Shown here piece after piece: positions 3,442-63,660 of a stretch of DNA of 64,000 bases. Source of the stretch: a virus; the IMG/VR virus record IMGVR_UViG_3300046692_000091, positions 143,261 to 207,260 of that record; one strand, given 5' to 3'. The notes under the pieces were generated by a model. That model worked only from the letters and a program-made list of their open reading frames with translations, was not told where the DNA came from and ran no database searches. The position numbers were made by a program, and so were the translations under genes. The first letter of the stretch is position 1. Every line of letters starts with the position of its first letter.

Positions 3442-3486
3442 GTTAAGGGGGGTCCTGCGAAAATCTATCTTCCAGGAGGAATCCCC

Positions 3487-3849
3487 ATGAAACCTATGTA
3501 TTTGACCCTTACCGACAACACGTTGACTTTTGAAGACCTGGTTAATGTAGGCCAGGATGCAGAAGCTCTCAAATTCACGTTGGTTGATCGTTTTACCCGT
3601 CAGCCAATAGATCGTCCTATGGTTGTTGCAGCGACTGATACGCGCCATGAAGGCGTTGTTGTATCGTCTGTAGTAATGCATAGCGATGGCGAATCTACCT
3701 TTCAAGCTTTGTTTGACTGGTGGAATAAATGTGAGATCCATGAGATCGCAATCGAATGGTATCACATCGATAGTGCCAAGGTTGATATCCGTGTGAAGGG
3801 TAATCCTAAACACGTTGTAAACTATGCTCTGAAAGTAGAAAAAGCATAG
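3487..3849 (+). CDS. hypothetical protein (120 aa)
   Basis: Strong SD 'ccaggaggaatccccATG'. Confidence 0.6.
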   Translation: MKPMYLTLTDNTLTFEDLVNVGQDAEALKFTLVDRFTRQPIDRPMVVAATDTRHEGVVVSSVVMHSDGESTFQALFDWWNKCEIHEIAIEWYHIDSAKVDIRVKGNPKHVVNYALKVEKA

Positions 3850-9171: not shown

Positions 9172-10554
9172 ATGCTTATTCAGGAAGTGTTAGGGTTATA
9201 CCACAATGCAATAGAGATGCTCAGTTCGGGTGACTCAACAGTCAAAGGTTTCATGACGTTGGGTGTCATGGGTCTGTTGGGTTATTTGGGGCGTACGATA
9301 CCCCAAACAATCTGGGCGTTCATCAAACGTAACACGATTTCATCGATGACTTTCACTCGCGCAGGTTCATATTCCATGGACATGCAGAACTACGTAGAGT
9401 TCATGCGTTGGTTCTCACAATCCAAGTGGGCTAAATATGATCGCAATCGACGTGTAACATTCGATCGGAATGACCCAGCTTTTGGACCAGGTACTGGCTT
9501 CCACTGGTTTGTTTGGAAAGGTCGTTACTTCTGGTTTAATGTTGTCCGTTTGAATTCCTCCGGTACCGATATCGAGAAAGAAGAATTCACACTGTATACA
9601 TTCGGTCGTACCACTAAACCATTCGAAGAACTGGTGGAAGAGTTCCGTATCAAGCCATGCAAGAAATCGATACGTATCTATGCCCCATCGAATGACGGTT
9701 GGAACTATCAGGGGCGACTACGGTTGGACGCTGATGAAACACTGATCATCGATCCAGAAGTAGAGAAAGAGTTCTTTGGTTCTATCGACTGGTATCTGGC
9801 AAACGAACCATGGTACCGTAAACGTGGATTGGCTTATAAACACACTGTCGTGTTGCATGGTCCACCTGGTACCGGTAAGACTTCGTTGATCAAACGTGCA
9901 GCCCGGAAGTACAAGCGGGATATTCACTTCCTGAACTTGGCTACCCATGGTCGTCAGTTGACTGATCTGATGGGTAAGTTGTCGGCTGGTGACATTCTGT
10001 GCATTGAAGACTTTGATGATGTCAAGTCGTTGCACCGTCGCACTGGTCCGAAGAAGATGGAAATCGGTGAACTGGACATCGGTTCCGATAAGAAACCAGA
10101 AGCGTTGTTGATGGACTGCGAGATTCAACTCAGTACCTTCCTCAACGTTCTGCAAGGCGTTGTAGAGCTCGATGATATCATTATCGTGCTGACTACTAAC
10201 CACCTGGAACTGATCGATCCAGCGGTCTACCGTCCGTCCCGTGTGAACAAACTGATCGAAGTGCTACCTCTGAAAGATCCGGAAGTTAAGCGCTATATCG
10301 ACACGATGTATGATAATCCTACTTACGATCGTAATGTAATGTACCCAGACGTTCCAGCTTCTACCCTGGCTGGTATCTTCATGGAGCACCCGAACGATCA
10401 CCTGGCTTTCATTGATAAGCTAGATTCGTTGGACGACAAATACGTCGCGGAGAACTATGCTCTACAACCAGAGCCCCCGCGCCCACCTTCCAAGAAAAAT
10501 AAGGACCCTTCTCCAATAGGAGGACAGGTTCTTGAAACCGTAGAGGCAGCGTAA
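9172..10554 (+). CDS. membrane-anchored AAA+ ATPase, Bcs1-like
   Basis: N-terminal TM helix GFMTLGVMGLLGYLG; Walker A HGPPGTGKTSLIK; Walker B ILCIEDFD; BCS1-like ...IHFLNL. Confidence 0.7.
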   Translation: MLIQEVLGLYHNAIEMLSSGDSTVKGFMTLGVMGLLGYLGRTIPQTIWAFIKRNTISSMTFTRAGSYSMDMQNYVEFMRWFSQSKWAKYDRNRRVTFDRNDPAFGPGTGFHWFVWKGRYFWFNVVRLNSSGTDIEKEEFTLYTFGRTTKPFEELVEEFRIKPCKKSIRIYAPSNDGWNYQGRLRLDADETLIIDPEVEKEFFGSIDWYLANEPWYRKRGLAYKHTVVLHGPPGTGKTSLIKRAARKYKRDIHFLNLATHGRQLTDLMGKLSAGDILCIEDFDDVKSLHRRTGPKKMEIGELDIGSDKKPEALLMDCEIQLSTFLNVLQGVVELDDIIIVLTTNHLELIDPAVYRPSRVNKLIEVLPLKDPEVKRYIDTMYDNPTYDRNVMYPDVPASTLAGIFMEHPNDHLAFIDKLDSLDDKYVAENYALQPEPPRPPSKKNKDPSPIGGQVLETVEAA

Positions 10555-10555
10555 C

Positions 10556-10897
10556 ATGGATAATTTTGCACGTCACAACTTCAACGTCTACCCGGAAGAG
10601 ATGACCTACCACAAAGATCGCTTCTTGCAAAATGATGCTGGTTGTGCGGTAGTTACATTCGTTGGGGCTTTTCATGGCGATACCATTCTGACGAATGAAG
10701 TCGAAGTGATTGCACGTGGTGTGGAACTGGGTAAGATCGCTCGGTTCCTGGTTCGTTCAGGTGATCAGGAAACCCATCTCGACATGGATCTGACAACCTG
10801 CCGTTATGAAGCAGAAAGCAATATCAAAACCAAACTGGGTGACGTCGTACTGGTGTTCACCGCGCACTACCCAACCGAAGAAAAGGAAGCTGCATGA
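10556..10897 (+). CDS. hypothetical protein (113 aa); ends KEAA
   Basis: ORF; stop overlaps next ATG. Confidence 0.5.
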   Translation: MDNFARHNFNVYPEEMTYHKDRFLQNDAGCAVVTFVGAFHGDTILTNEVEVIARGVELGKIARFLVRSGDQETHLDMDLTTCRYEAESNIKTKLGDVVLVFTAHYPTEEKEAA

Positions 10898-11832
10898 TTC
10901 GCGTTCGTTATGGTTACAGTCATAGTTCTTCGACGATGCCTGTTGAAATGAAACACATGCCGGGTGGTGAACTCCACCCAACGCTTGACACGGATCACTT
11001 GAATGCCAGCGAGTACACCATCTACGCCGACACCAAGAGCTCGGATGATCTGTTTGGTATTGCTCTGGTAGCTAACGCTATCCGCCGTAATGCCGAAGTA
11101 CCAATCAAAGCACTCTCTCTGGTAATTGGTTATGTGCCTTATGCACGCCAAGACCGTATTGTTGGTGGTGAAGGTGAGGCACTATCGATCGAAGTGATGG
11201 CCGACTTCATCAACATGCTGAACTTCGATGCAGTGATCATTGCAGATCCCCACAGCGATACAACTCCGGCTTTGATCCGTAATGCTAAGGTCATGTCCCA
11301 GGAAATGATCTTCAGTGAATTCCTGATCCGCGAAACGGCAGACTTCGATACCCGTGAGATTGCTTACGTGCCATCTGAGTACATCCTGGTTTCCCCAGAT
11401 GCTGGTGCGATCAAGAAGACCGAGAAGCTGGCTACTAAGTTCGGCTTTAAAGGTGTAGCGTACGCTAACAAAACACGCAATACCCGTACCGGTAAGATCA
11501 CTGGTTGTACTGTGGACCGATTGGTTTTGGATGGTGAACCAGCAATGATAAGTCAACTACAAGGCGAGAAGCTTTTAGTAGTTGACGATATCTGTGATGG
11601 TGGTTATACATTTATCCAATTGGCCGAAGTGTTGAATACCTACAGCCCAGCTAGTTTGGAACTGTACGTCACTCACGGTATCTTCTCTAAAGGTCTCGAG
11701 CCGTTGTATAAAGCGGGTTACACTCGTGTTGTTACTACCAATGCTTATGGCATGGAAGGTAGCACTGAGCTGTATGCGCTTGAGAAAGAAGAAAAGAAAG
11801 CACTCAAATTCGTAAAAATCGATATTGCCTAA
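10894..11832 (+). CDS. ribose-phosphate pyrophosphokinase family protein (Prs-like; alternatively ADPR pyrophosphokinase Adps of the NARP1 pathway)
   Basis: Prs signatures GYVPYARQDR and PRPP-binding loop LLVVDDICDGGYT; 312 aa. Confidence 0.7.
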   Translation: MIRVRYGYSHSSSTMPVEMKHMPGGELHPTLDTDHLNASEYTIYADTKSSDDLFGIALVANAIRRNAEVPIKALSLVIGYVPYARQDRIVGGEGEALSIEVMADFINMLNFDAVIIADPHSDTTPALIRNAKVMSQEMIFSEFLIRETADFDTREIAYVPSEYILVSPDAGAIKKTEKLATKFGFKGVAYANKTRNTRTGKITGCTVDRLVLDGEPAMISQLQGEKLLVVDDICDGGYTFIQLAEVLNTYSPASLELYVTHGIFSKGLEPLYKAGYTRVVTTNAYGMEGSTELYALEKEEKKALKFVKIDIA

Positions 11833-11841
11833 GGATTCAAA

Positions 11842-13656
11842 ATGTCAATGTTTCTCAACGCTGGTACCGCTACTGACTTCTACAAACCTGGCCACGGTCC
11901 ACTGTATCCAGAAGGCACTACCCGTAAGTACTCCAACTTCACCCCACGCTCGGCGAAGAACTTCCTGCGTTCCAAAAGCTGCTCGGCTTACTATGATAAC
12001 AAAGTAGTAAACTTCGGCCTGTATGGTACCTGGCAAGAACTGGTTGACCTGTGGGATAAAACCTTCTTCCAAGTTTCGAAGAAGAAAGCAATCGCCTTCA
12101 TCAAACGTCGTTTTGATAATGGCACTGGTCCTGATGTTATCACAACTGCTCAAATCGCTGCACTCCACGATGTCGGCTTCCTGCCGGTAACTGTGTTGTC
12201 CATCGAAGAAGGTAACCGTGTCGATATCGGCATTCCTCTGTGGGTTATCTATAACTCCGAAGAATACCCAGAACACTACTGGCTGGTTAACTACCTGGAA
12301 ACCATCACCAGTTCGTACAACTGGCAGTCGATCACCAACGCAACCATCGCCTACGAATATCGTCGTCTGTGCGAGATCTGGGCTGCTAAGACCTGTGATA
12401 ACAATGACCACGTTAAAATCCAAGGTCATGACTTCTCGTTCCGTGGCATGCCTGGTCCAGAAGCTGCTGGTCGTTCTAACGCGGGCCACTTGGCTTCGTT
12501 CTGGGGTACTGATACTATCCCGGCAATCGATTACATCGAACGCCTGTATAACGCCAACTCTGATAAAGAAGTCCTGGGTGTATCGGTTACTGCTACTGAA
12601 CACGCCGTTGCTACTGCGAATATCCTGTCTCGCCTGAAGCACAAGATCCGTGCTCTGCCTGCCGACACTGTTATCTCCGGTGAAATGATCGATCTGCTCA
12701 AACTCGAATGCGAGCGTGAGTACATCCTGGAAATCATCCTGGTAAAAGTGAAGAAGGGTATCATCTCCCTGGTTTGCGATTCCTTCGACTTCTGGAGTGT
12801 TATCGAACACGTACTGCCTTCGCTCCGTAAGGAAATCGAAAGCCGTATCGTGAACGAACTCGGTCTGGCTAAAGTAGTTGTACGTCCTGACTCGGGTAAT
12901 CCGGTACACGTGATCTGTGGTTTCAAAATCATGGGTGAGTTCGCTGACATTGCTGCATTCTCGAAGCATGTCTACGACAACGGTACTTTCGAACTGGGTA
13001 TGTACGAAGCTGTGAAGATTGGTGATGTTTACCATGAACTGCAGAATACTACTTGGACTAGCTGCTCTATCGAAGACTTCCTGGGTCGTGAGATGAAGCG
13101 GGTAGAAGCAATCGGTGCGATCGAATCCCTGTGGGAATCTTTCGGTGGTCACACTAACACCAAAGGCTATAAAGTACTGAACTCGTACATCGGTCTGATC
13201 TATGGTGACTCGATCACTGTTGAACGTACCGAACAGATCTTCCAACGTCTGGCTGATAAAGGCTTCGCTTCGTCGAACGTTGTTCTGGGTATCGGTTCGT
13301 TTACTTATCAGTACAACACTCGTGATACCTTCGGCATGGCCATGAAGGCAACTGCGTGTGAAGTGCAGGATGAACTGATCGAGCTGTACAAAGATCCGAA
13401 GACCGCTGCATCCAAGAAGTCCGCTAAAGGCTTCCTGCGTGTACTGAAAGACGAGAACGGCAAATATACACTCGAACAAGAAGTGGAAATGGATTGGAAA
13501 GATCTGTTCTACGGTTCGGGTGAACTGAAGCCTCTGTTCCACAACGGTAAGTTCCAGCGTGCTGAACATTTCGGTGATGTACGTAGTCGCATTGACTCTA
13601 CTTTCGTAGTAGCTAATGACGATGACGGTTTCGACCCAGTCGAAGAAGCGGCATAA
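11842..13656 (+). CDS. nicotinamide phosphoribosyltransferase family protein (NAMPT/NadV-like, or Namat-like), 604 aa
   Basis: N-terminal GTATDFYKPGH resembles NAMPT DSYKxxH; type II PRTase-like length; ends VEEAA. Confidence 0.65.
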   Translation: MSMFLNAGTATDFYKPGHGPLYPEGTTRKYSNFTPRSAKNFLRSKSCSAYYDNKVVNFGLYGTWQELVDLWDKTFFQVSKKKAIAFIKRRFDNGTGPDVITTAQIAALHDVGFLPVTVLSIEEGNRVDIGIPLWVIYNSEEYPEHYWLVNYLETITSSYNWQSITNATIAYEYRRLCEIWAAKTCDNNDHVKIQGHDFSFRGMPGPEAAGRSNAGHLASFWGTDTIPAIDYIERLYNANSDKEVLGVSVTATEHAVATANILSRLKHKIRALPADTVISGEMIDLLKLECEREYILEIILVKVKKGIISLVCDSFDFWSVIEHVLPSLRKEIESRIVNELGLAKVVVRPDSGNPVHVICGFKIMGEFADIAAFSKHVYDNGTFELGMYEAVKIGDVYHELQNTTWTSCSIEDFLGREMKRVEAIGAIESLWESFGGHTNTKGYKVLNSYIGLIYGDSITVERTEQIFQRLADKGFASSNVVLGIGSFTYQYNTRDTFGMAMKATACEVQDELIELYKDPKTAASKKSAKGFLRVLKDENGKYTLEQEVEMDWKDLFYGSGELKPLFHNGKFQRAEHFGDVRSRIDSTFVVANDDDGFDPVEEAA

Positions 13657-15774: not shown

Positions 15775-15782
15775 CAACATAA

Positions 15783-17010: not shown

Positions 17011-17282
17011 ATACGTTGCTTAAAATCTGTATCATCTTGTGCTTTCAGTTGTATTGGTTGCTGGCCTGGCCATTCATGAAACGTACTCGTTACCTCACCA
17101 CAGCCGGTAAGTTGAACCGTATTCCGAATATGGGTACCGGTTGCAGCGAGATCGTTAAGCTGTTGAATCGGGACTATGGCGCTGAGATGCAGATTGAAGT
17201 AACGGCTAGTCCGCGCTTCCGTTATGATCGTTTCCGCTGGACATTCCGTTTCTGCGATTGCACCATCCGCGTTACCGAATAA
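17007..17282 (+). CDS. hypothetical protein (91 aa)
   Basis: ATGA overlap; hydrophobic N-terminus. Confidence 0.45.
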   Translation: MNTLLKICIILCFQLYWLLAWPFMKRTRYLTTAGKLNRIPNMGTGCSEIVKLLNRDYGAEMQIEVTASPRFRYDRFRWTFRFCDCTIRVTE

Positions 17283-17352
17283 AAATATACCCGTGTTGAT
17301 TATTGATTGCGATGAAGTCTGTCGCTTTCAATATCTCACGAGGTGTATTTCA

Positions 17353-18735
17353 ATGACTCAAGAAGTTGCTGTATCTGTCGAAGTTGTAACTCCACCAGTA
17401 GTGGAAGCTGTTGTTGTAAAAGAAATCAAAGAAGGTTTCGGTGTTGTAGAGAAAGACCGGAAACTTGCACGTATCGTTGTAATTGATGATGTCGTTAAGC
17501 ATCCTAATGCTGACGCTCTGGAACTGGCTGTTATTGGTGGCTGGCAGCTCTGCGTTAAAATTGGCGAATACAAGAAAGGTGATCGTGCAGTCTACTGTGA
17601 AATCGACTCTCTGCTCCCACTGTCTAACGTAGAACTGTTCGGCTTCCTGGAAGAACGCCGTTCCGATAACCGTCGTGTAAATGGTGTGAACTTTCACCGT
17701 CTGAAAACCATCAAGCTGCGTAAAGAACTTTCGCAAGGTCTGCTGGTGCCAGTTCCTGCTAAGTTCAAAGATGCTCCGGTTGATACTAACCTGACTATCG
17801 AACTTGGTATCCTGAAATACGAAGCCCGTGCACCTATGGAACCTGGTTCGAAAGAAACCCGTGGTTCGGATTGGTACTCGCGTTTGGTTCGACGTATCCT
17901 GGGTAATATTGGCGGTACTCTGCTGCCATGGCCTACTCAGCTGATGAAGTCTGACCAAGATCGCGTACAGAACAAAACTGTTGCTTTCGCTGTGGCTCAA
18001 GAAGAAGGTGAAGAATTCGAAGTTACCTTCAAGCTCGACGGCCAGTCGATGACAGTCTTCTGCATCGATGATAACGGTATCCGTACTGGTGTCTGCTCCC
18101 GTAACTACGAACTGGGTATTGGCGGTGGTCAATGGACATTCGCTGAACAGATCCGTTACTGGGTTGGTACTTTCCTGGCTCGTAACCGTAAGATCATCTC
18201 CTGGAAGAAAACCAAGGATGAAGAAGGTAACTTCAAGCTTAAGGTTCGCTGGAACGGTGTGAACATCCCTGAGTGGAAAGCCAAAACTGAAGGTGGCGAT
18301 AACAACTATACCCGTACTGTTGCTAAGTACGACATCATCGAGAAGCTGAAAGCCTACCAAGCACGTACTGGTGAATTCATCAGCCTGCAAGGCGAACAGA
18401 TCGGTCCTGACATTCAGTCTGGTTTCGAAGGCGTAGAAGAACACGAGTATCATGTCTTCAACGTATACCGCAATGGTAACGAAGAAGTCCTGCCAGAAGA
18501 AGCACGTAAGATTGTTGCTGAACTTGGTCTGACTTACGTCCCAGTGATGCATGAACGTTTCAAGATCCCTGCAGAATTCACTGTTAAGGATATCCTGGCT
18601 ATGGCCGAAGGTCAACGTGCTTTCAACCAGAAGAAAGGTACTTACCGTGAAGGTATCGTGTTCAAGTCGCTGAAACGAGTAATGTCGTGGAAAGCTATCT
18701 CGAATGCTTACCTCTGTAAGAAAGCTGACGAATAA
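17353..18735 (+). CDS. ATP-dependent RNA ligase with N-terminal tRNA-binding (Myf/EMAP-like OB) domain
   Basis: tRNA_bind signature VVKHPNADALELAVIGGWQLCVKIGEYKKGDRAVY; ligase motif I TFKLDGQS; SD 'gaggtgtatttcaATG'. Confidence 0.55.
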   Translation: MTQEVAVSVEVVTPPVVEAVVVKEIKEGFGVVEKDRKLARIVVIDDVVKHPNADALELAVIGGWQLCVKIGEYKKGDRAVYCEIDSLLPLSNVELFGFLEERRSDNRRVNGVNFHRLKTIKLRKELSQGLLVPVPAKFKDAPVDTNLTIELGILKYEARAPMEPGSKETRGSDWYSRLVRRILGNIGGTLLPWPTQLMKSDQDRVQNKTVAFAVAQEEGEEFEVTFKLDGQSMTVFCIDDNGIRTGVCSRNYELGIGGGQWTFAEQIRYWVGTFLARNRKIISWKKTKDEEGNFKLKVRWNGVNIPEWKAKTEGGDNNYTRTVAKYDIIEKLKAYQARTGEFISLQGEQIGPDIQSGFEGVEEHEYHVFNVYRNGNEEVLPEEARKIVAELGLTYVPVMHERFKIPAEFTVKDILAMAEGQRAFNQKKGTYREGIVFKSLKRVMSWKAISNAYLCKKADE

Positions 18736-54865: not shown

Positions 54866-56125
54866 TTAACCTTTTACGCAGAGAATTTGTTTGAGAGTAT
54901 GGACGATGTCCACGAGTTGTTCTTGTGCAGACATTACGTCTTCGATGTTCTTGTAAGCTTTTGGTGTTTCATCGATGACAGAGATATCCTTACGACATTC
55001 TACACCAGCTGTATCACGGACATGATCTTCCAGGGTGAATGTCTTAGCAGCCTGAGTACGGGACATGACTCGGCCAGCTCCGTGTGAACACGAGCAGAAA
55101 GAATCACGGTTACCTTTACCACGGACGATGAAAGACTTAGCGCCCATCGAACCAGGGATAATCCCGAGTGTACCTTTATCTGCGTTCACTGCACCCTTAC
55201 GAGTTACCAGAACGTTGTTACCGAAGTGGCGTTCTTCTGATACGTAGTTGTGGTGGCAGTTGATGGCCGACATATCGGAATCGATTGGCAGACCTAGAGT
55301 ACGGTGGATAGCACCAAGAGTAGCATGCATCATGATCGAACGGTTAAGTGCAGCGAAGCGTTGTGCCCAGGACACGGCTTCGATGTAGTCGTTGTAATAT
55401 TGCGAACCTTCGGGGAGGTAAGCGAGATCACCATCTGGCAGATGAATGAAGAAACGTTTCATTTCTTCTTTTGCTTTCGAGATAAAGTAAGTACCGATTG
55501 CGTTACCGATACCACGAGAACCAGAGTGCAGCATCACCCACACTTGATCGGATTCATCCAGACAGATCTCGATGAAGTGGTTACCTGTACCGAGAGTACC
55601 TACATGGTTCCATGCACGAGCTGCAGCTTTCGCCAACTTAGGATGACGTTCTACAATACGTTCCAGATGCTTACGCAGTTTCTCTGCTTCATCACGGATA
55701 GCTTGAGATTGGTGAGTGAACACGGATACCGTACCAAATGCACCACGATCGTTCTTCCCACCGTTGTCAGTACGGCCATGAGGCACTGAGGCTTCGATAG
55801 CGGCACGCAAATGGCCAAGAGAGGTCGGTAGTGCTGTGGACTTAAAAGTAAGGCGCTGCGCAGCCATACCACAACCGATATCAACACCTACTGCGGCTGG
55901 AATGATTGCGCCTTTAGTAGCAACCACAGAACCCACTGTTGCACCTTTACCCAAGTGTACGTCGGGCATCACAGCAATGTGCGAATAGATGAATGGGAGG
56001 GCAGCAATGTTCTTGAGTTGAGAAATTGCTTCTTTCTCTACTGGTACGCCAACGGTCCAGCCTTTGATTGGTTTAGAACCTGGTTCTACTGTATCACCAA
56101 TCAGTTCAAATGTTTTCTGTTTCAT
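54866..56125 (-). CDS. rtcB: RNA-splicing ligase RtcB (3'-phosphate/5'-hydroxyl RNA ligase)
   Basis: Full-length RtcB signatures MPDVHLGKG, GCGMA, HSGSRG, CHHNY, IIPGSMG, SCSHGAGR; SD 'gtgaggctttatATG'. Confidence 0.85.
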   Translation of the reverse strand: MKQKTFELIGDTVEPGSKPIKGWTVGVPVEKEAISQLKNIAALPFIYSHIAVMPDVHLGKGATVGSVVATKGAIIPAAVGVDIGCGMAAQRLTFKSTALPTSLGHLRAAIEASVPHGRTDNGGKNDRGAFGTVSVFTHQSQAIRDEAEKLRKHLERIVERHPKLAKAAARAWNHVGTLGTGNHFIEICLDESDQVWVMLHSGSRGIGNAIGTYFISKAKEEMKRFFIHLPDGDLAYLPEGSQYYNDYIEAVSWAQRFAALNRSIMMHATLGAIHRTLGLPIDSDMSAINCHHNYVSEERHFGNNVLVTRKGAVNADKGTLGIIPGSMGAKSFIVRGKGNRDSFCSCSHGAGRVMSRTQAAKTFTLEDHVRDTAGVECRKDISVIDETPKAYKNIEDVMSAQEQLVDIVHTLKQILCVKG

Positions 56126-56160
56126 ATAAAGCCTCACGCGGATGGAAAGAGGAATTGTTA

Positions 56161-56186
56161 CATACACTGACTTTGCCAGTATTATT
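56161..56186 (-). promoter_or_regulatory. minus-strand promoter-like bipartite motif (AATACTGG-N11-TATGT) upstream of rtcB
   Basis: RC = taataATACTGGcaaagtcagtgTATGTaac; one of 5 copies. Confidence 0.45.
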
Positions 56187-56961: not shown

Positions 56962-56988
56962 GTATACTATTACGTTCTCAGTATTTTA
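56962..56988 (-). promoter_or_regulatory. minus-strand promoter-like motif overlapping radical-SAM stop
   Basis: RC = aaAATACTGAgaacgtaatagTATACgac; faces a 435-nt noncoding region. Confidence 0.45.
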
Positions 56989-57870
56989 TTTCAGGAAAGT
57001 ACCACAACTTGCTTGTACATCAGTACCAACGCGAGGAATTAGTTTTACACGTGCATTGGGTAATCGGCGTTTGATGTAACGATGTAAGTAATCGATATGG
57101 CCTTCTACTGGTTCACGAGAGTAATGCCCTTCTGGTGGATTGTACCGAACGATGTTCCAATTAACCTCTAACTGATATCCATCGATCACATCCAGGATAG
57201 CTTTAACATCAGCAAGGTTATCATTTTCATGTTCAATGAAAGCGTAGTGGATCTTCGGAACTTTGCCTGTGTGCAGCTGCCAGTCTTTGAGGATTGCGAA
57301 TGCATCTCGTGGGTAACCCGCTTTAGGTAACCAACGTTTACGAAACCGATCATTCAATGAGTAGACCGAATAATAAATCTCGGGGTATACCTCTGGATCA
57401 GTGAACACCGATTCAAGTGACCGGCGACTAAACTCTTCTGGCATGATAGTAGATATCAGGAACTTTGATTCAAGTCCATATCTGGCTGCACGTTTCTTTA
57501 AGCCACGCAAGATCTCATCGGCATTACTTAGAAAGATCTTATTAGCTAAAGGTTCGCCTCGTGCCATGAAGTTGAAATGGACCATCTTAGCTGGATGCTT
57601 GTCGGCATAGTATCGTAGGACTTCATCTGCTTGCTGCCAGAATTCTTCAATCGTGGTATCACGTAGTTTATTCTGACCTGTTGCAGTTAACCAGCACATC
57701 CGGCAAGCTTGCTTACAACCTGTCTGAGACGACAAGTAAACAATGAAGTAGTCATCAACCCGACGTACATATCGTGCCTCTAGCATCCCTGGGTGATCTT
57801 CAAAGCGGTGTTCGAAGTTTACTGATTGATCGAGTTGGGATACATGTTGTTTAAAGATTAGATTATCCAT
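56986..57870 (-). CDS. radical SAM enzyme (294 aa)
   Basis: 4Fe-4S motif TGCKQACRMCW (CxxxCxxC); SD 'agggactattagctaATG'. Confidence 0.6.
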   Translation of the reverse strand: MDNLIFKQHVSQLDQSVNFEHRFEDHPGMLEARYVRRVDDYFIVYLSSQTGCKQACRMCWLTATGQNKLRDTTIEEFWQQADEVLRYYADKHPAKMVHFNFMARGEPLANKIFLSNADEILRGLKKRAARYGLESKFLISTIMPEEFSRRSLESVFTDPEVYPEIYYSVYSLNDRFRKRWLPKAGYPRDAFAILKDWQLHTGKVPKIHYAFIEHENDNLADVKAILDVIDGYQLEVNWNIVRYNPPEGHYSREPVEGHIDYLHRYIKRRLPNARVKLIPRVGTDVQASCGTFLK

Positions 57871-58637: not shown

Positions 58638-59369
58638 TTAGACTACGCTGGGGGTGTAATTATTGGTGTAACGCACGTAGTTACTAATTCTTACATTACC
58701 TAGGTAACGAGGAACGTTATTAGCGTTGCTGTTTAGAGCACCTAGGTATAACGTAGACAAGTTAGCGAAGTTACTAGCTGGTCCACTCTGGAAGAAACCA
58801 GATAATGTTCCACCTGAAACTCCAGGCTGCATGTCTTGTAGTACGCCGTTAATATAGAATCTTAGGCGGCGATTAGTATCGCAGGTCATTGCGTATTTAG
58901 TGACTATATTCGTAAAGGTGTTGAAGGTAACTGCCGGGTAACGACACTCTGACTTCGCTCCACTGTTGCTGTTATCAGAGAACATCAATAGATTACCATA
59001 ACCGGCATCACCAAAGCGCATGGTGAAACCTTTGAGTAATGACGAATCTGTCATATAGAATTCGTTTGTCCAAGCCGTAGCATTACCTGGGCGAAGTTCT
59101 GACCACTCGATTGTCCAATTGGTACTAGACAAATCCAAGAGTGGGTTGAAAGCCATGAATAAACGCGAACCACTACCACCAGCTGTAGGCATAGATAGGG
59201 TTGGTTTATTATCAATTAGTGTTGTGTTACTCACCACTGCGCCAGCGGATATTGTGATGGGTCTATTACTAACAGTCTCGGTCACTGTGGCCATGTCAAT
59301 ATACAGGATCACATCACCTGTTTCTGGCGGGACCGAGCTCGAACTTGGTGATAGTAGTAATTCATACAT
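58638..59369 (-). CDS. concanavalin A-like/LamG-like domain protein (243 aa), paralog of 61416-62135
   Basis: Shared blocks with paralog: MYExLL, TGDVxxLYxD, NWTxEWS, RxGDxGxxxLxxxDN, RxSNxxRYTxNYTP. Confidence 0.5.
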   Translation of the reverse strand: MYELLLSPSSSSVPPETGDVILYIDMATVTETVSNRPITISAGAVVSNTTLIDNKPTLSMPTAGGSGSRLFMAFNPLLDLSSTNWTIEWSELRPGNATAWTNEFYMTDSSLLKGFTMRFGDAGYGNLLMFSDNSNSGAKSECRYPAVTFNTFTNIVTKYAMTCDTNRRLRFYINGVLQDMQPGVSGGTLSGFFQSGPASNFANLSTLYLGALNSNANNVPRYLGNVRISNYVRYTNNYTPSVV

Positions 59370-60408: not shown

Positions 60409-61083
60409 TTATTCGTGCGTAGTAGACAGCTCAGAGATAATGCAGATCGAACCATCTTCAACCGGAGTGGTATCGGAGTAATCAACCTGATTGTAAACAC
60501 CACCATGGAACTGGAAGGTTTCATATTTCCACGAACTATCTAGCTTCAGCACTGGGCAGACTGACTTACGACCTTGGCAAAGCACTGACGCCGATACGGA
60601 ACCAGCAGCTGTGACATGTAAGCTAATCTTGAATGGTACACCCAATGGAACGTCTTCTATTAGTGTAAAGTTGTTTATTAGTGCGTCATCGAAGTTAGCT
60701 CGGAAACCAGCTGTGATCTTCCCTTTATTCCAGAAGACTTTCAGTGGCGGAGTTGTAGCATCTTTGACATGGACTTGTGCAATTACCACTTTCTTAGCCG
60801 AGTTGACTTTAGTAACAGTCATCTCTTGGCGAGACCAGTGATGTGCTGCGCTAGTAAGAGACCAATAAGCTGGTTCTTTCCATTCACAGCGTGTGCGATG
60901 TGTACTTTTGCTGGACGCCCCTAATGTGGGCGCAGAGAGTTGAATAGAACCGTCTTCCAATTGACTGACCACTTCTGGACATCTTACCAAGGCTTCCGAA
61001 CCGAGGAGCTCCAATGCAACCGGATTCTCATCAGAGACCGGTAATGGAGTAGCAATCAAATAGTTACTGATATCAACGAACAT
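60409..61083 (-). CDS. beta-jelly-roll protein, tentatively polysaccharide lyase family 7 (alginate lyase)-like
   Basis: VIAQVHVKD resembles PL7 Q(I/V)H; FQFHGGVYNQ resembles PL7 YFKAGVYNQ. By-eye call only. Confidence 0.35.
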   Translation of the reverse strand: MFVDISNYLIATPLPVSDENPVALELLGSEALVRCPEVVSQLEDGSIQLSAPTLGASSKSTHRTRCEWKEPAYWSLTSAAHHWSRQEMTVTKVNSAKKVVIAQVHVKDATTPPLKVFWNKGKITAGFRANFDDALINNFTLIEDVPLGVPFKISLHVTAAGSVSASVLCQGRKSVCPVLKLDSSWKYETFQFHGGVYNQVDYSDTTPVEDGSICIISELSTTHE

Positions 61084-61415: not shown

Positions 61416-62135
61416 TTACAACTCTAGTGGGCCAGGAGTATAGTTACGTGTATATCTAGCGAAGTTACTAAGTCGAACTCTACCGTGATGCCCAGGAACA
61501 GCACGTACCGAACTACCGTTCGAATCACCAAATATAAGCGAGGTGATATTGATCAGTGCTGTTGGTGTAATCGTTTGCATAATGTAGGTTCCATTAGCTG
61601 CACCCTTAGCCAATGGGAGTCTCTGTCCATTACGGTAAATAAAGATCTGACCATTCTTACATACAAATGCCCATCTACTCAAATTACTAACTAAGGCAGC
61701 TTTAGTGAATTGGGTATTATAACAATCGGCTGGTGCAGAGGCTGTGTTATCCCCCAAATGGAGTCTGTCTAAGAAACCAGAGTCACCATACCTGAAGAAT
61801 AGTCCACGGCCAGCTGTTGAACTAGTCATTGAAAATTCAAGGGCATAGGCAGTAGGGGCGGTGTCGTTTATAGATGACCATTCTAATGTCCAGTTTATTG
61901 CACTTAAGTTGAGAGGGGCTGCAAATGTCATCACCTGTTTAGCTGCAACCGTTGGGTATTGCATACTGCCTTGCCCATCGATTAAATACCCAGCGTCAGC
62001 TATTGCTCCACCGGTATTGTTGGTGACGGTACCTAACCCAGATAGATCGGTGGCGGTAACTGGATCATACAAGAATAACACATCCCCTGTGTCCTCCACT
62101 GGTAAACTACCCCCAGCTAATAATGCCTCATACAT
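61416..62135 (-). CDS. concanavalin A-like/LamG-like domain protein (239 aa), paralog of 58638-59369
   Basis: Same conserved blocks as 58638-59369. Confidence 0.5.
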   Translation of the reverse strand: MYEALLAGGSLPVEDTGDVLFLYDPVTATDLSGLGTVTNNTGGAIADAGYLIDGQGSMQYPTVAAKQVMTFAAPLNLSAINWTLEWSSINDTAPTAYALEFSMTSSTAGRGLFFRYGDSGFLDRLHLGDNTASAPADCYNTQFTKAALVSNLSRWAFVCKNGQIFIYRNGQRLPLAKGAANGTYIMQTITPTALINITSLIFGDSNGSSVRAVPGHHGRVRLSNFARYTRNYTPGPLEL

Positions 62136-62198
62136 GACGGTGTGTCCTTTGGTTTATCAATTCAAACTATTGGGCGACATAAGAGTAGCCGAAGCTAC

Positions 62199-62393
62199 TC
62201 ATCCATAAAGAGTTCCCCAGTTAACAACTTTATTCAGTTGTTCTTGAGTAGGGATTTTATCTCTGACTCGTTGCTCGCATTCTTTATCGAATTGTTCCAT
62301 TCTGATACGTGCTTCTTTGAGCCTTTCTTTTTGTTCATCTGTCAGTGGTTCTAATGCGTTACGTGAGAGTGCTATTAAAGTAGCCAGGCTCAT
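62199..62393 (-). CDS. small helical protein (64 aa), member 5 of tandem paralog array
   Basis: MSLATLIALSRNALEPLTDEQKERLKEAR...; ATGA overlap with member 4. Confidence 0.5.
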   Translation of the reverse strand: MSLATLIALSRNALEPLTDEQKERLKEARIRMEQFDKECEQRVRDKIPTQEQLNKVVNWGTLYG

Positions 62394-62572
62394 ATCGTGA
62401 TCAGCCTATTCAAGAGTTCTTGTGAAGGAGCCGTACGCGCGTGGCGCTCGTCAATCTCTTTGTTATATCCCCGCATTCTTTCATAGAACGCTATATTCCT
62501 TTTCTCACGCTCTTCGGCAGATATTGGTTCAGCTCTTTTATTAGCCAGATCTATTAAAGCTTTCAGGCTCAT
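62390..62572 (-). CDS. small helical protein (60 aa), member 4
   Basis: MSLKALIDLANKRAEPISAEEREKRN...SQELLNRLITI. Confidence 0.5.
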   Translation of the reverse strand: MSLKALIDLANKRAEPISAEEREKRNIAFYERMRGYNKEIDERHARTAPSQELLNRLITI

Positions 62573-62736
62573 AATGAGATTACTCTGTTTAAGAGTTCTT
62601 CTGTAACTACTGAGGCTTTCCATTCCTTGGATAACCGGATGTTAGTCTGTCTCATTCTTTCTTGGGCAACGGAAAGGCTTTCTTCATGTGTACCATTGCG
62701 CGTACGAGCATCTTCGATGAGTTGTTCAAGTGTCAT
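62569..62736 (-). CDS. small helical protein (55 aa), member 3, not in ORF track
   Basis: MTLEQLIEDARTRNGTHEES...TEELLNRVISL; ATGA overlaps on both sides. Confidence 0.45.
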   Translation of the reverse strand: MTLEQLIEDARTRNGTHEESLSVAQERMRQTNIRLSKEWKASVVTEELLNRVISL

Positions 62737-62900
62737 AACGTACATCTCTTAGCTAAAAGTTCAGGGGTAACTTTCTGCTTCTCGAAGTCTTCAGCACACC
62801 GCTTATTAAAAGCAGCCGAACGTTTAGCATGGGCTGCCATGCGTTCTTCTTTAGTGCCCATGCTATCTCTTACAGCTTTACACAGTGCCTCTAGACTCAT
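62733..62900 (-). CDS. small helical protein (55 aa), member 2, not in ORF track
   Basis: MSLEALCKAVRDSMGTKEERMAAHAK...TPELLAKRCTL. Confidence 0.45.
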   Translation of the reverse strand: MSLEALCKAVRDSMGTKEERMAAHAKRSAAFNKRCAEDFEKQKVTPELLAKRCTL

Positions 62901-63082
62901 AACGTACACCTTTTGTTCAAGATCTCAGGAGTCATTTGTTGATTTTTCAACTGTTGCTCCAGCCTCTGGTCCAGTTCAGACATATATTTCTTTTGATACT
63001 CTTGAAACTCTACCTGTGTCATACCCATAGCCGATGCAATCCGATCTGCCATTCGTTCAATTAATCCCGGTGTCATTGCCAT
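62897..63082 (-). CDS. small helical protein (61 aa), member 1
   Basis: MAMTPGLIERMADRIAS...TPEILNKRCTL; same KRCTL end as member 2. Confidence 0.5.
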   Translation of the reverse strand: MAMTPGLIERMADRIASAMGMTQVEFQEYQKKYMSELDQRLEQQLKNQQMTPEILNKRCTL

Positions 63083-63345
63083 TAATCCACCTGTATCTGT
63101 ACATAGACTCTTGTCACACCATGCACGAAGTCATAGTTGCTTACGTACTGTGCTTCATTCAAAGGCTTAGCACTGATCCATACTTGGATGATATCCTGTC
63201 CACACTTACGTAGGATCTTAGATACACGGTTCTGGATACGTCTACGACCTACTGCAGATATCTTAGGGAACTCACGCTTTAACATGAGTACCATGCGTTC
63301 ATGGCATTCTTTGCCACGCTGTACTTCTGATGGGGTTCTATGCAT
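63082..63345 (-). CDS. small basic protein (87 aa), possible HTH
   Basis: FPKISAVGRRRIQNRVSKILRKCG resembles a sigma region-4-type HTH; TAATG overlap upstream. Confidence 0.4.
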   Translation of the reverse strand: MHRTPSEVQRGKECHERMVLMLKREFPKISAVGRRRIQNRVSKILRKCGQDIIQVWISAKPLNEAQYVSNYDFVHGVTRVYVQIQVD

Positions 63346-63629
63346 TAGTGCATCACCATTGAACCTTCGAGATGGCAAGCGCAACGACACAGTTGTGTTT
63401 CTGTATCGCCATCAACCACAATCAACAGACTAGGATAGAATTGACGTTTAGCAAAAACTAGCTTACCCCATTCTGATTCTGTATCATCTCGTTCAATAGC
63501 TACAGCCGTTTCACTAAAGTTCTTTTTTAGGAAAGCTTCACTCAGTGTGTGATCTTTATTGAGGTATTGACGTTCACTTCTTGCGCAACAAGGTACCATT
63601 GGATATTCCTCTTTTGGATTAGACAGCAT
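63345..63629 (-). CDS. Cys-rich hypothetical protein (94 aa)
   Basis: MVPCCARSE ... QLCRCACH; start is the ATG inside a hairpin-CTTTATG element. Confidence 0.4.
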   Translation of the reverse strand: MLSNPKEEYPMVPCCARSERQYLNKDHTLSEAFLKKNFSETAVAIERDDTESEWGKLVFAKRQFYPSLLIVVDGDTETQLCRCACHLEGSMVMH

Positions 63630-63650
63630 AAAGGAGATCCGAAGATCTCC
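63625..63650 (-). terminator. hairpin + CTTTATGCTG (minus strand)
   Basis: RC ggagatcttcggatctcctttatgctg; the ATG doubles as start of 63345-63629. Confidence 0.45.
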
Positions 63651-63660
63651 TTTATTGAAT

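What the first reader, a model, noticed from the sequence alone, without database searches (positions are those of the whole stretch)
62199..63082. Tandem array of five 55-64-aa paralogous helical proteins linked by ATGA overlaps
Five consecutive minus-strand genes, three of them missing or mis-started in the ORF track, encode proteins sharing M[ST]Lx[AQ]L[IC] at the N-terminus, a central EER/KEE motif, and [TS]PE[EL]L[NA][KR] near the C-terminus. Two end identically in KRCTL. Every junction is an ATGA start/stop overlap, implying tightly coupled translation. Rapidly duplicating small-protein arrays in phages are typically host-takeover or anti-defence factors under diversifying selection.
Basis: seen in the sequence. 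Interest (0 to 1): 0.55.

Follow-up and report, generated by a model that had tools for sequence, protein, structure and literature searches.

The report
Ordered array of small helical phage proteins
Five back-to-back genes in a giant Pseudomonas phage really do encode related 55-64-residue helical proteins, but they are old, conserved copies of an uncharacterised family already present in phiKZ and its relatives, not a freshly duplicating array, and what they do is still unknown.

Summary
Five minus-strand genes (63082..62199) encode homologous 55-64-aa proteins, and all four junctions are ATGA overlaps. All ten pairs score above shuffled controls (z 3.9-14.9). All five hit PHROG 20797, a family of unknown function.

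The window comes from a Psa21-like Pseudomonas jumbo phage. The last copy (p5) is the orthologue of phiKZ PHIKZ295.1. Other members are 201phi2-1 gp449/gp450 and pf16 gp101. Each window copy belongs to a different old subfamily and is closer to orthologues in other phages (62-80% identity) than to its neighbours (14-33%). Related phages carry 1-6 copies in a conserved order, with members gained or lost.

Where dS is measurable, dN/dS is 0.03-0.33. That indicates purifying selection, not diversifying selection.

The five genes are the distal part of a seven-gene unit bounded by two hairpin+TATG elements. TATG is the phiKZ non-virion RNA polymerase promoter motif. Shine-Dalgarno sequences sit inside the conserved C-terminal codons: Arg is AGG/AGA in 12 of 14 cases, against 8% in long ORFs of the window.

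Published phiKZ transposon data show PHIKZ295.1 is dispensable on PAO1. Nothing links the family to a known fold or function. My best guess, at moderate-to-low confidence, is conditionally useful binders of a host or defence component.

The parts
63627..63652 (-). GC hairpin (AAGGAGATC-TTCG-GATCTCCTT) followed at once by TATG. It is the inferred terminator of the upstream tRNA-Asn genes plus a phiKZ-type nvRNAP promoter, with the G at 63627 as the predicted +1.
   Evidence: The same hairpin+T(T)TATG(C/T)CG element precedes the family gene or operon in phiKZ, PA7, PS119XW, 201phi2-1, D6, RVTF4 and Viktualia. It occurs 11 times in the window against 1.4 +/- 1.3 in shuffles. TATG with G = +1 is the phiKZ late promoter (PMC4666361; PMC12809450). 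The start site is inferred, not mapped.
63345..63599 (-). w84, the first gene of the unit. It is an 84-aa Cys/His-rich protein with invariant CC...CxCxCH...G...H at the C-terminus, so probably metal-binding. It is a conserved neighbour of the family across genera.
   Evidence: Gene call of the identical contig. Homologues lie next to family members in Psa21, Viktualia, L014, L015, L023, 201phi2-1 and PS119XW. No Pfam, PHROG or PDB match. The AF2 model is poor, pLDDT 51. The 94-aa mechanical ORF (63629) starts at the ATG of the TATG motif and is a mis-start.
63082..63345 (-). w87, the second gene, 87 aa, function unknown. It sits in a variable slot: present in the window and L015, and replaced by an unrelated 80-aa gene in D6 and L023.
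   Evidence: One metagenome protein (P0112) is an in-frame fusion of a w87-like protein with a family member. TAATG overlaps at both ends.
62897..63082 (-). p1, 61 aa, subfamily A (...MTPEILNKRCTL).
   Evidence: Orthologues are 59-77% identical in L011-L016, D6 and RVTF4.
62733..62900 (-). p2, 55 aa, subfamily C (...FNKRCAEDFE...TPELLAKRCTL).
   Evidence: Orthologues are 57-64% identical in L014, L015, D6 and RVTF4.
62569..62736 (-). p3, 55 aa, subfamily D (MTLEQLIE.ARTRNGTHE...VISL).
   Evidence: The L014 orthologue is 80% identical. AF2 with 66 sequences gives pLDDT 88.5 and helices at 3-13, 17-42 and 46-49.
62390..62572 (-). p4, 60 aa, subfamily G (MSLKALIDLAN...LNRLITI). It is F-like but lacks the C-terminal extension.
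   Evidence: Orthologues are P0106 (77%) and P0134 (62%). It is nearest to F-type members (50%).
62199..62393 (-). p5, 64 aa, subfamily F (...LNKVVNWGTLYG). It is the orthologue of phiKZ PHIKZ295.1 and is always the last gene of the array.
   Evidence: It is identical to P0003, found on a 314,814-bp JGI contig.
62178..62200 (-). Hairpin GAGTAGC-TTCG-GCTACTC, overlapping the p5 stop codon, followed by TTATG. It is the inferred end of the unit and the promoter of the downstream 239-aa LamG-like gene.
   Evidence: The same hairpin+TTATG follows the last (F-type) gene in Psa21, D6, RVTF4, L011-L014 and L016.

Best explanation
SHOWN. The five genes are a real, ordered array of anciently diverged paralogues of one small-protein family. 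The family is PHROG 20797, with members phiKZ PHIKZ295.1, 201phi2-1 gp449/gp450 and pf16 gp101. Named members are all from Pseudomonas phages; the rest come from metagenomes and viral contigs. The array lies in the tRNA-rich accessory island of a Psa21-like jumbo phage. Each copy (A, C, D, G, F types) has orthologues in other phages. Related phages hold 1-6 copies in the order A-B-C-D/E-G-F, with members gained or lost, and a single copy is sufficient in phiKZ. The phiKZ orthologue tolerates transposon insertions on PAO1 and is listed among the proteins in a proteomics data table for phiKZ-infected cells.

INFERRED (expression). The five genes are the distal part of a seven-gene unit, w84-w87-p1..p5. 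The unit starts at a hairpin+TATG element, which is the promoter type read by the phage's non-virion RNA polymerase, so expression would be middle or late rather than immediate-early. It ends at a second hairpin+TATG. Ribosomes finishing one gene restart on the next at ATGA, helped by a Shine-Dalgarno sequence built into the conserved C-terminal codons (K-R-C = AAA AGG TGT; K-V = AAG GTG; final L/I = NTA before TGA). The copies would therefore be made together in similar amounts.

INFERRED (protein). Each protein has a short amphipathic N-helix, a 26-residue helix with a heptad hydrophobic seam and a conserved R-x-R, and a T-P-E-capped C-terminal turn ending in a hydrophobic residue. A protein this small is unlikely to be stable alone, so it probably works by pairing with itself, a paralogue or a target.

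COMMITTED GUESS. These are non-virion, conditionally useful binding modules. Each would latch onto a Pseudomonas component, either a host factor or a defence protein, through the conserved seam and the RxR/TPExLNK face. The paralogues would cover different variants of that target, which would explain why copy content differs between otherwise near-identical phages.
For: - Paralogy and family membership.
- Orthologues in phiKZ, 201phi2-1, pf16, Psa21, D6, RVTF4 and Viktualia.
- The family is narrow: 97 clusters among 1.84 billion representatives, and nearly all members are 52-66 aa.
- Turnover: the window and L015 share flanking genes at 91% aa identity (dS 0.4-0.6). Yet their arrays are A-C-D-G-F versus A-B-C-E-F, and the shared types are only 60-80% identical with dS above 1 or saturated.
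- Purifying selection: dN/dS 0.03-0.33.
- Transcription unit: hairpin+TATG elements at 63627 and 62178. Meaning of TATG: PMC4666361 and PMC12809450. phiKZ tRNAs depend on the nvRNAP: PMC12571901.
- Coupling: ATGA at 26 of 31 within-array junctions across loci, SD match and AGG/AGA codon bias.
- Structure: AF2 pLDDT 88.5, all helical. Heptad pattern and invariant residues.
- Dispensability: PHIKZ295.1 has 6-14 insertions in 186 bp (PMC12676376 supplement).
- Accessory island: phiKZ orf184-304 is largely non-essential. gp298 is a host-range adsorption factor and gp302 is needed against an intracellular defence of strain Env201.
- Protein data: PHIKZ_p88 is listed in the SEC-MS source data for phiKZ infection.
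- Occurrence in unrelated phage backbones without tRNAs nearby (pf16, L017, L020) points to an autonomous, horizontally moving accessory gene.
Against: - No target, partner or activity is shown. The 'binder of a host or defence component' step is inference from size, helicity, distribution and neighbourhood only.
- A late-type promoter is unusual for classic anti-defence genes.
- Strong purifying selection and a conserved gene order fit a housekeeping-like phage role as well as an arms-race role.
- Restriction to Pseudomonas phages is known only for named phages. The hosts of the metagenome members are unknown.
- The AF2 model is of a monomer, so the oligomeric state is untested.
- The TATG start site and the reinitiation are not mapped for this phage.
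Confidence: 0.4

Rival explanations
1. Morphogenesis or adsorption accessory. The small helical proteins would be late-expressed chaperones, adaptors or minor components for the neighbouring host-range virion proteins: the LamG-like 239/243-aa paralogues, the Kelch proteins and the PL7 depolymerase.
For: - The promoter is of the late TATG type.
- The array is directly followed by LamG/ConA-like paralogues that also vary in copy number, 1-3.
- Neighbours annotated or shown as virion proteins include phiKZ gp298 (a Kelch adsorption factor) and PHIKZ294.1, 201phi2-1 gp452, and genes in RVTF4 and Viktualia.
Against: - 201phi2-1 gp449/gp450 and PHIKZ295.1 are not flagged as virion proteins, although their neighbours are, including a 32-aa one.
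- In pf16, L017 and L020 the family sits among replication, protease or repair genes with no such neighbours.
- Copy numbers of the two families do not track each other.
Confidence: 0.2
2. RNA or tRNA-directed factors. The proteins would bind RNA, tRNA or an RNA-handling enzyme as part of the phage's tRNA and RNA-repair island.
For: - In all phiKZ-like relatives the genes sit among tRNA genes. In 201phi2-1 they lie within 2 kb of its only tRNA.
- RtcB, an RNA ligase and a radical-SAM-like gene are in the same window.
- R-x-R and K/R are conserved. Several members are basic, with pI 9.3-10.
Against: - The tRNA linkage is inherited synteny within one phage lineage. It is absent in pf16, L017 and L020.
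- p1, p3 and p5 are neutral to acidic, with pI 5.7-6.2.
- There is no similarity to any RNA-binding family.
Confidence: 0.12
3. One reading: a recently and rapidly duplicating array evolving under diversifying selection.
For: Copy number varies from 1 to 6 between phages, and array content differs between close relatives.
Against: - Paralogues are 14-33% identical to one another but 62-80% identical to orthologues elsewhere.
- The subfamily order is conserved.
- There is no DNA-level duplication.
- dN/dS is 0.03-0.33.
- The variation is best explained by loss and recombinational exchange of old cassettes.
Confidence: 0.05
4. Antitoxin-like addiction-module components.
For: p1 gives a faint hit to TIGR02574, 'putative addiction module component' (E 0.093, 12.7 bits).
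Against: - The score is far below the 31.9-bit cut-off, and only one of the five hits.
- No toxin-like partner gene is present in any locus.
Confidence: 0.03

Closest known systems
PHROG 20797 / phiKZ PHIKZ295.1 (locus tag PHIKZ_p88), an uncharacterised 61-aa protein
   Same: - p5 is its orthologue: same length class, same N-terminus (MSLxxL), same C-terminal NWGT(L/K)YG.
- Both lie downstream of a hairpin+TATG element in the tRNA island.
- All five window proteins hit the PHROG profile.
   Different: phiKZ, PA7 and PS119XW carry a single copy followed by gp295-like genes. The window carries five subfamilies in tandem, preceded by w84 and w87.
Homologous arrays in Pseudomonas phages D6, Psa21, RVTF4, Viktualia and 201phi2-1 (gp449-gp450), all annotated 'hypothetical protein'
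   Same: - Same family, same ATGA-coupled tandem layout and same flanks: tRNA-Asn ... array ... LamG-like gene ... tRNA-Trp.
   Different: - Member content differs. D6 is A-B-C-D-F, Psa21 is B-E-C-F, Viktualia has six copies and 201phi2-1 has B-E.
- The window lacks B and E and has the rarer G type.
- One Psa21 member (L001 3831-4004) and one D6 member are unannotated or mis-started in GenBank.
Operons of small accessory or anti-defence genes in phage variable islands, for example anti-CRISPR operons or the phiKZ orf184-304 non-essential region
   Same: - Tiny ORFs, tight packing and presence/absence variation between close relatives.
- Dispensable in the laboratory host.
   Different: - No member matches a known anti-defence protein, and there is no Aca-like regulator.
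- The promoter is of the late type.
- The copies are homologous to each other rather than unrelated cassettes.
- This resemblance rests on general knowledge and is not a tested membership.

Membership tests
PHROG 20797 (small phage protein, unknown function) | Significant match to the family profile over most of its 54 positions | tested here: met
   One search gives E values of 6e-6 for p1 (C-terminal half only), 5e-4 for p2, 9e-5 for p3, 0.12 for p4 and 1.5e-5 for p5. p4 is linked independently through F-type orthologues (50% identity) and a p4-p5 alignment z of 14.9.
PHIKZ295.1 orthologue group (F subfamily), for p5 only | C-terminal extension NWGxxYG (or IDYGIRxx), last position in the array, downstream of hairpin+TATG | tested here: met
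Translationally coupled (termination-reinitiation) operon | Stop and start codons overlap, and a ribosome-binding site lies inside the upstream gene | tested here: met
   ATGA at 4 of 4 junctions. The mean contiguous SD match is 5.0 nt at overlapped junctions against 3.0 nt at non-overlapped gene ends. Arg is AGG/AGA in 12 of 14 cases, against 8% in long ORFs of the window.
Translationally coupled (termination-reinitiation) operon | Translation of the downstream gene depends on translation of the upstream gene | not testable with these tools
   This needs reporter fusions or ribosome profiling.
phiKZ-type nvRNAP (late) transcription unit | 5'-TATG-3' at the start site, with G as +1 | tested here: met
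   TATG lies directly after a terminator-like hairpin at both ends of the unit. The composite element is enriched 8-fold over shuffles. The definition comes from PMC4666361.
phiKZ-type nvRNAP (late) transcription unit | Mapped 5' end and middle or late timing | not testable with these tools
   No transcriptome exists for this phage. Supplements of the 201phi2-1 and phiKZ ONT-cappable-seq papers were not available.
Known anti-defence proteins (anti-CRISPR, Tad, Gad, Acb and similar) | Sequence or fold similarity to a characterised inhibitor | tested here: not met
   No annotated PHROG, Pfam, NCBIfam or PDB match. Foldseek gave 0 hits against PDB and nothing against BFVD. No dedicated anti-defence library was available, so new inhibitor families are not excluded.
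Helical hairpin or compact helical bundle | Two long antiparallel helices packed on each other in the monomer | tested here: inconclusive
Type II antitoxin, TIGR02574 / Unstab_antitox | Score above the curated cut-off, and an adjacent toxin gene | tested here: not met
   12.7 bits against a cut-off of 31.9, for p1 only. No toxin neighbour is present.
DUF488 / YeaO (the JGI name attached to p1) | Match to Pfam DUF488 | tested here: not met
   JGI labels P0007 (identical to p1) as 'YeaO (DUF488 family)'. No DUF488 hit appears even at E <= 1.

The most novel reading that the evidence does not exclude
The family would be a new class of modular coiled-coil inhibitors or decoys in Pseudomonas phages. 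Each subfamily would neutralise a different variant of one host defence or host factor, and the Cys/His protein w84 would act as a shared partner. The array would then be a combinatorial 'host-range cassette', shuffled by recombination among jumbo phages and occasionally exported to unrelated phages such as pf16.
Probability: 0.2. Interest if true: 0.6.

Novelty: new member of a known kind. Interest (0 to 1): 0.3.

Why it matters
Small proteins of this kind make up roughly half of jumbo-phage genes, and most are dispensable in the laboratory (PMC12676376). This family is tractable for three reasons:
- It has a phiKZ orthologue for which transposon mutants already exist.
- It varies naturally from one to six copies.
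- It has clear subfamilies.

A strain-specific phenotype of orf295.1::Tn, or of an array deletion in Psa21 or D6, would turn the array into a defined host-range or anti-defence module. The overlap between a conserved C-terminal peptide motif and the next gene's ribosome-binding site is also a clean example of dual coding. Such dual coding can inflate apparent protein-level conservation. As it stands, the finding is a correct but ordinary observation of an uncharacterised phage family.

Tried and rejected
- **Megablast** of the region against 50,697 phage records found no match. Relatives appeared only at the protein level.
- **Pfam, NCBIfam and PADLOC** gave nothing above noise for the five proteins, w84 or w87.
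- **PDB sequence profile search** gave only E > 0.4.
- **The search for related loci** with the whole-family alignment failed because no stretch was conserved enough. The A-subfamily alignment worked.
- **w84.** The homologue search found only 2 proteins. The profile gave no Pfam, PHROG or PDB match. The AF2 model reached only pLDDT 51, so no fold search was run on it.
- **Literature.** No paper mentions PHIKZ295.1 or gp295.1 in its main text. The gp450 hits are for a different phage, PA5oct. The phiKZ structural atlas does not list gp294, gp295 or gp298.
- **Middle-promoter motif.** No AAAnnTTAC motif lies in an intergenic position upstream of the unit. No sigma-70-like promoter lies on the minus strand.
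- **tRNA-linked function.** I considered it and downgraded it, because members outside the phiKZ-like lineage have no tRNA nearby.
- **P0095.** This is an 1848-aa protein with at least 10 repeats resembling the C-terminal motif, plus a CCA-adding-enzyme-like region. Only the 16-residue motif matches, and repetition inflates the score, so I judged it not homologous.
- **Rfam** found only tRNAs in 52-64 kb.
Full report
**1. What is in the sequence**

Reading the minus strand from 63082 to 62199 gives five consecutive genes:

| Gene | Coordinates | Length |
|---|---|---|
| p1 | 63082..62897 | 61 aa |
| p2 | 62900..62733 | 55 aa |
| p3 | 62736..62569 | 55 aa |
| p4 | 62572..62390 | 60 aa |
| p5 | 62393..62199 | 64 aa |

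Every junction is ATGA. The mechanical ORF list extends p2, p3 and p4 to upstream in-frame starts. The ATGA starts match the conserved N-termini of orthologues. They also match an independent gene call on an identical public contig.

The five proteins are homologous. Identity to p1 is only 14-33%. Even so, all ten pairwise local alignments beat shuffled controls (z 3.9-14.9; at most 5 of 2000 shuffles reach the observed score). All five hit the same 54-position profile, PHROG 20797, annotated 'unknown function'. A family HMM finds no further copy in the 64-kb window.

**2. Where the window comes from and who the relatives are**

There is no nucleotide-level match in 50,697 phage records. tblastn places the region in Pseudomonas jumbo phages. 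The PL7 alginate lyase is 75% identical to Psa21's. p5 matches D6, RVTF4, Psa21, Viktualia, PS119XW-like and phiKZ-like phages, and the T4-like pf16. p5 is identical to a protein on a 314,814-bp JGI contig.

The layout tRNA-Asn ... small genes ... LamG-like gene ... tRNA-Trp ... PL7 lyase is shared with Psa21 and D6. The phiKZ orthologue is PHIKZ295.1 (PHIKZ_p88), which lies between tRNA-Asn and tRNA-Thr. In 201phi2-1 the members are gp450 and gp449.

An exhaustive profile search of 1.84 billion representative proteins finds only 97 clusters. Nearly all are 52-66 aa.

**3. Old paralogues in a conserved order, not fresh duplicates**

Family members in 12 distinct phages fall into at least seven subfamilies:
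- A: ...MTPEILNKRCTL
- B: EPTCWKVMGY...
- C
- D: MTLEQLIE.ARTRNGTHE...
- E: ...EYRRSxEPPEE...
- G: ...LNRMITI
- F: ...NWGTLYG

The window carries A, C, D, G and F. Each copy has orthologues elsewhere at 62-80% identity.

| Phage or locus | Array content |
|---|---|
| Window | A-C-D-G-F |
| D6, L011-13 | A-B-C-D-F |
| L015, L023 | A-B-C-E-F |
| RVTF4 | A-C-D-F |
| Psa21 | B-E-C-F |
| L016 | A-D-F |
| 201phi2-1 | B-E |
| phiKZ, PA7, PS119XW | F only |
| pf16 | one D/E-like copy |
| Viktualia | six copies |

A is first when present, and F is always last.

The only DNA-level repeat is 53 nt at 75% identity across two junctions.

Nei-Gojobori estimates are mostly saturated at synonymous sites. Where they are usable, dN/dS is 0.03-0.33.

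The window and L015 share flanking genes at 91% aa identity (dS 0.4-0.6). Their arrays nevertheless differ in content, and the shared types are only 60-80% identical with dS above 1 or saturated. This points to exchange of old cassettes by recombination, under purifying selection.

**4. The transcription unit**

Directly after the second tRNA-Asn comes AAGGAGATC-TTCG-GATCTCCTT-TATG, with the G at 63627. About 28 nt further lies the start of an 84-aa gene, w84. Then come an 87-aa gene, w87, and p1 to p5. These are joined by TAATG or ATGA overlaps.

Overlapping the p5 stop codon is GAGTAGC-TTCG-GCTACTC-TTATG, with the G at 62178. It is followed by the 239-aa gene.

This 'GC hairpin + T(T)TATG' element occurs 11 times in the window, against 1.4 +/- 1.3 in dinucleotide shuffles. 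It also precedes the family gene or its operon in phiKZ, PA7, PS119XW, 201phi2-1, D6, RVTF4 and Viktualia.

In phiKZ, 5'-TATG-3' with G as +1 is the late-promoter motif. It is required by the non-virion RNA polymerase and bound by its subunit GP123 (PMC4666361; PMC12809450). phiKZ tRNA expression depends on that polymerase (PMC12571901).

I therefore infer a seven-gene unit transcribed by the nvRNAP. This is not shown for this phage. No sigma-70-like promoter is present on this strand.

**5. Coupling and dual coding**

Across loci, 26 of 31 junctions between consecutive family genes are ATGA. The last codons of the upstream gene carry the next gene's ribosome-binding site:
- K-R-C is AAA AGG TGT.
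- K-V is AAG GTG.
- The final L/I is NTA, which with TGA creates the ATG.

At overlapped junctions, Arg in K-R-C is AGG or AGA in 12 of 14 cases, against 21 of 266 Arg codons in long ORFs of the window. The stand-alone L017 gene uses CGC, and pf16 uses AAG GTC.

Part of the striking C-terminal conservation is therefore nucleotide-level constraint. The motif [TS]xExL[NA][KR] itself is kept in single-copy genes too, so it also matters at the protein level.

**6. The proteins**

AlphaFold2 on p3 with a 66-sequence alignment gives pLDDT 88.5 and pTM 0.50. The predicted helices are 3-13, 17-42 and 46-49.

The alignment shows hydrophobic positions at about 21/24/28/31/35/39 of the long helix, which is a heptad seam. 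It also shows a conserved R-x-R and near-invariant T45, E47, L49, K/R51 and a terminal L/I/W. Predicted pI ranges from 5.7 to 10.

**7. Neighbours**

w84 has invariant CC...CxCxCH...G...H and sits beside family members in five genera-level lineages. No family or fold could be assigned to it.

w87 occupies a variable slot. One metagenome protein fuses a w87-like protein in frame to a family member.

The wider window contains:
- an RtcB ligase, an RNA ligase, a radical-SAM-like gene, and NAMPT with a PRPP synthetase;
- LamG-like paralogues;
- a PL7 lyase.

Outside the phiKZ-like lineage (pf16, L017, L020) the family gene has neither tRNAs nor these neighbours. Its function is therefore probably autonomous.

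**8. Experimental data on the phiKZ orthologue**

- No paper discusses it.
- In the phiKZ transposon screen, PHIKZ295.1 carries 6-14 insertions in its 186 bp, so it is dispensable on PAO1 (PMC12676376 supplement).
- It lies in the orf184-304 block that is largely non-essential. That block also holds gp298, a Kelch protein needed for adsorption to some wild strains, and gp302, needed against an intracellular defence of strain Env201.
- PHIKZ_p88 is listed in the SEC-MS source data for phiKZ infection (PMC10449902).
- It is not flagged as a virion protein in RefSeq, although the 32-aa PHIKZ294.1 nearby is.

**9. Verdict**

The finding is a real, homologous, translationally coupled array. It is a new instance of an already catalogued but uncharacterised phage family, and equivalent arrays sit unremarked in GenBank phages. 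The 'rapid duplication and diversifying selection' reading is contradicted.

The most likely role is a conditionally useful, non-virion binder of a host or defence component (about 0.4). The rivals are a virion or adsorption accessory (about 0.2) and an RNA/tRNA-directed factor (about 0.12). Interest is modest.

Noticed in passing
window 10894-11832 (+) and 11842-13656 (+): Adjacent genes for a ribose-phosphate pyrophosphokinase (PRPP synthetase) and a nicotinamide phosphoribosyltransferase. From general knowledge, such an NAD-salvage pair can counter NAD-depleting defence systems.
   Followed up: no
window 54866-56167 (-), 17224-18735 (+), 56986-57870 (-): An RtcB tRNA-splicing ligase, an RNA ligase with an OB-fold domain, and a radical-SAM-like protein with a CxxxCxxC motif. 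Together with seven tRNA genes at 58-64 kb, they form an RNA-repair and tRNA island.
   Followed up: partly
window 61416-62135 (-) and 58638-59369 (-): Two LamG/ConA-like paralogues, 33% identical. The first lies directly downstream of the array. The family is present in 1-3 copies in D6, RVTF4, Psa21 and L011-L016, so it is a second copy-number-variable family in the same island.
   Followed up: partly
window, + strand G at about 3133, 18764, 34995, 43216, 48830; - strand G at 15778, 52072, 56193, 59436, 62178, 63627: A recurrent intergenic element: a perfect 6-9-bp GC-rich hairpin, mostly with a TTCG loop, followed at once by T(T)TATG. It occurs 11 times against 1.4 +/- 1.3 in shuffles. It looks like a combined terminator and phiKZ-type TATG promoter.
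   Followed up: partly
window 63345-63599 (-): w84 is an 84-aa protein with invariant CC...CxCxCH...G...H. It is conserved next to the small-protein family in Psa21, Viktualia, 201phi2-1 (unannotated there, L019 6754-6999) and PS119XW gp373. No family or fold was found. The 94-aa mechanical ORF starting at 63629 is a mis-start at the ATG of the TATG motif.
   Followed up: partly
window 60409-61083 (-): A PL7 alginate lyase (Pfam Alginate_lyase2, E 6.5e-39). It is 75% identical to the Psa21 protein and 43% to those of P. putida phages.
   Followed up: no
protein P0095 (metagenome, 1848 aa): It contains at least 10 tandem repeats FTPEIMNKVVDYYIRxGF, which resemble the family's C-terminal motif. 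By eye it also has a region like a CCA-adding enzyme / HD domain. I judged it a short-motif resemblance inflated by repetition.
   Followed up: partly
L001 3831-4004 (Psa21) and L002 3667-3840 (D6): Family members that are unannotated in the GenBank records. In D6 the neighbouring member is also annotated with a shortened start (3465-3599).
   Followed up: yes
window 9172-10554 (+): A BCS1-like AAA+ ATPase, with BCS1_N and AAA domains.
   Followed up: no
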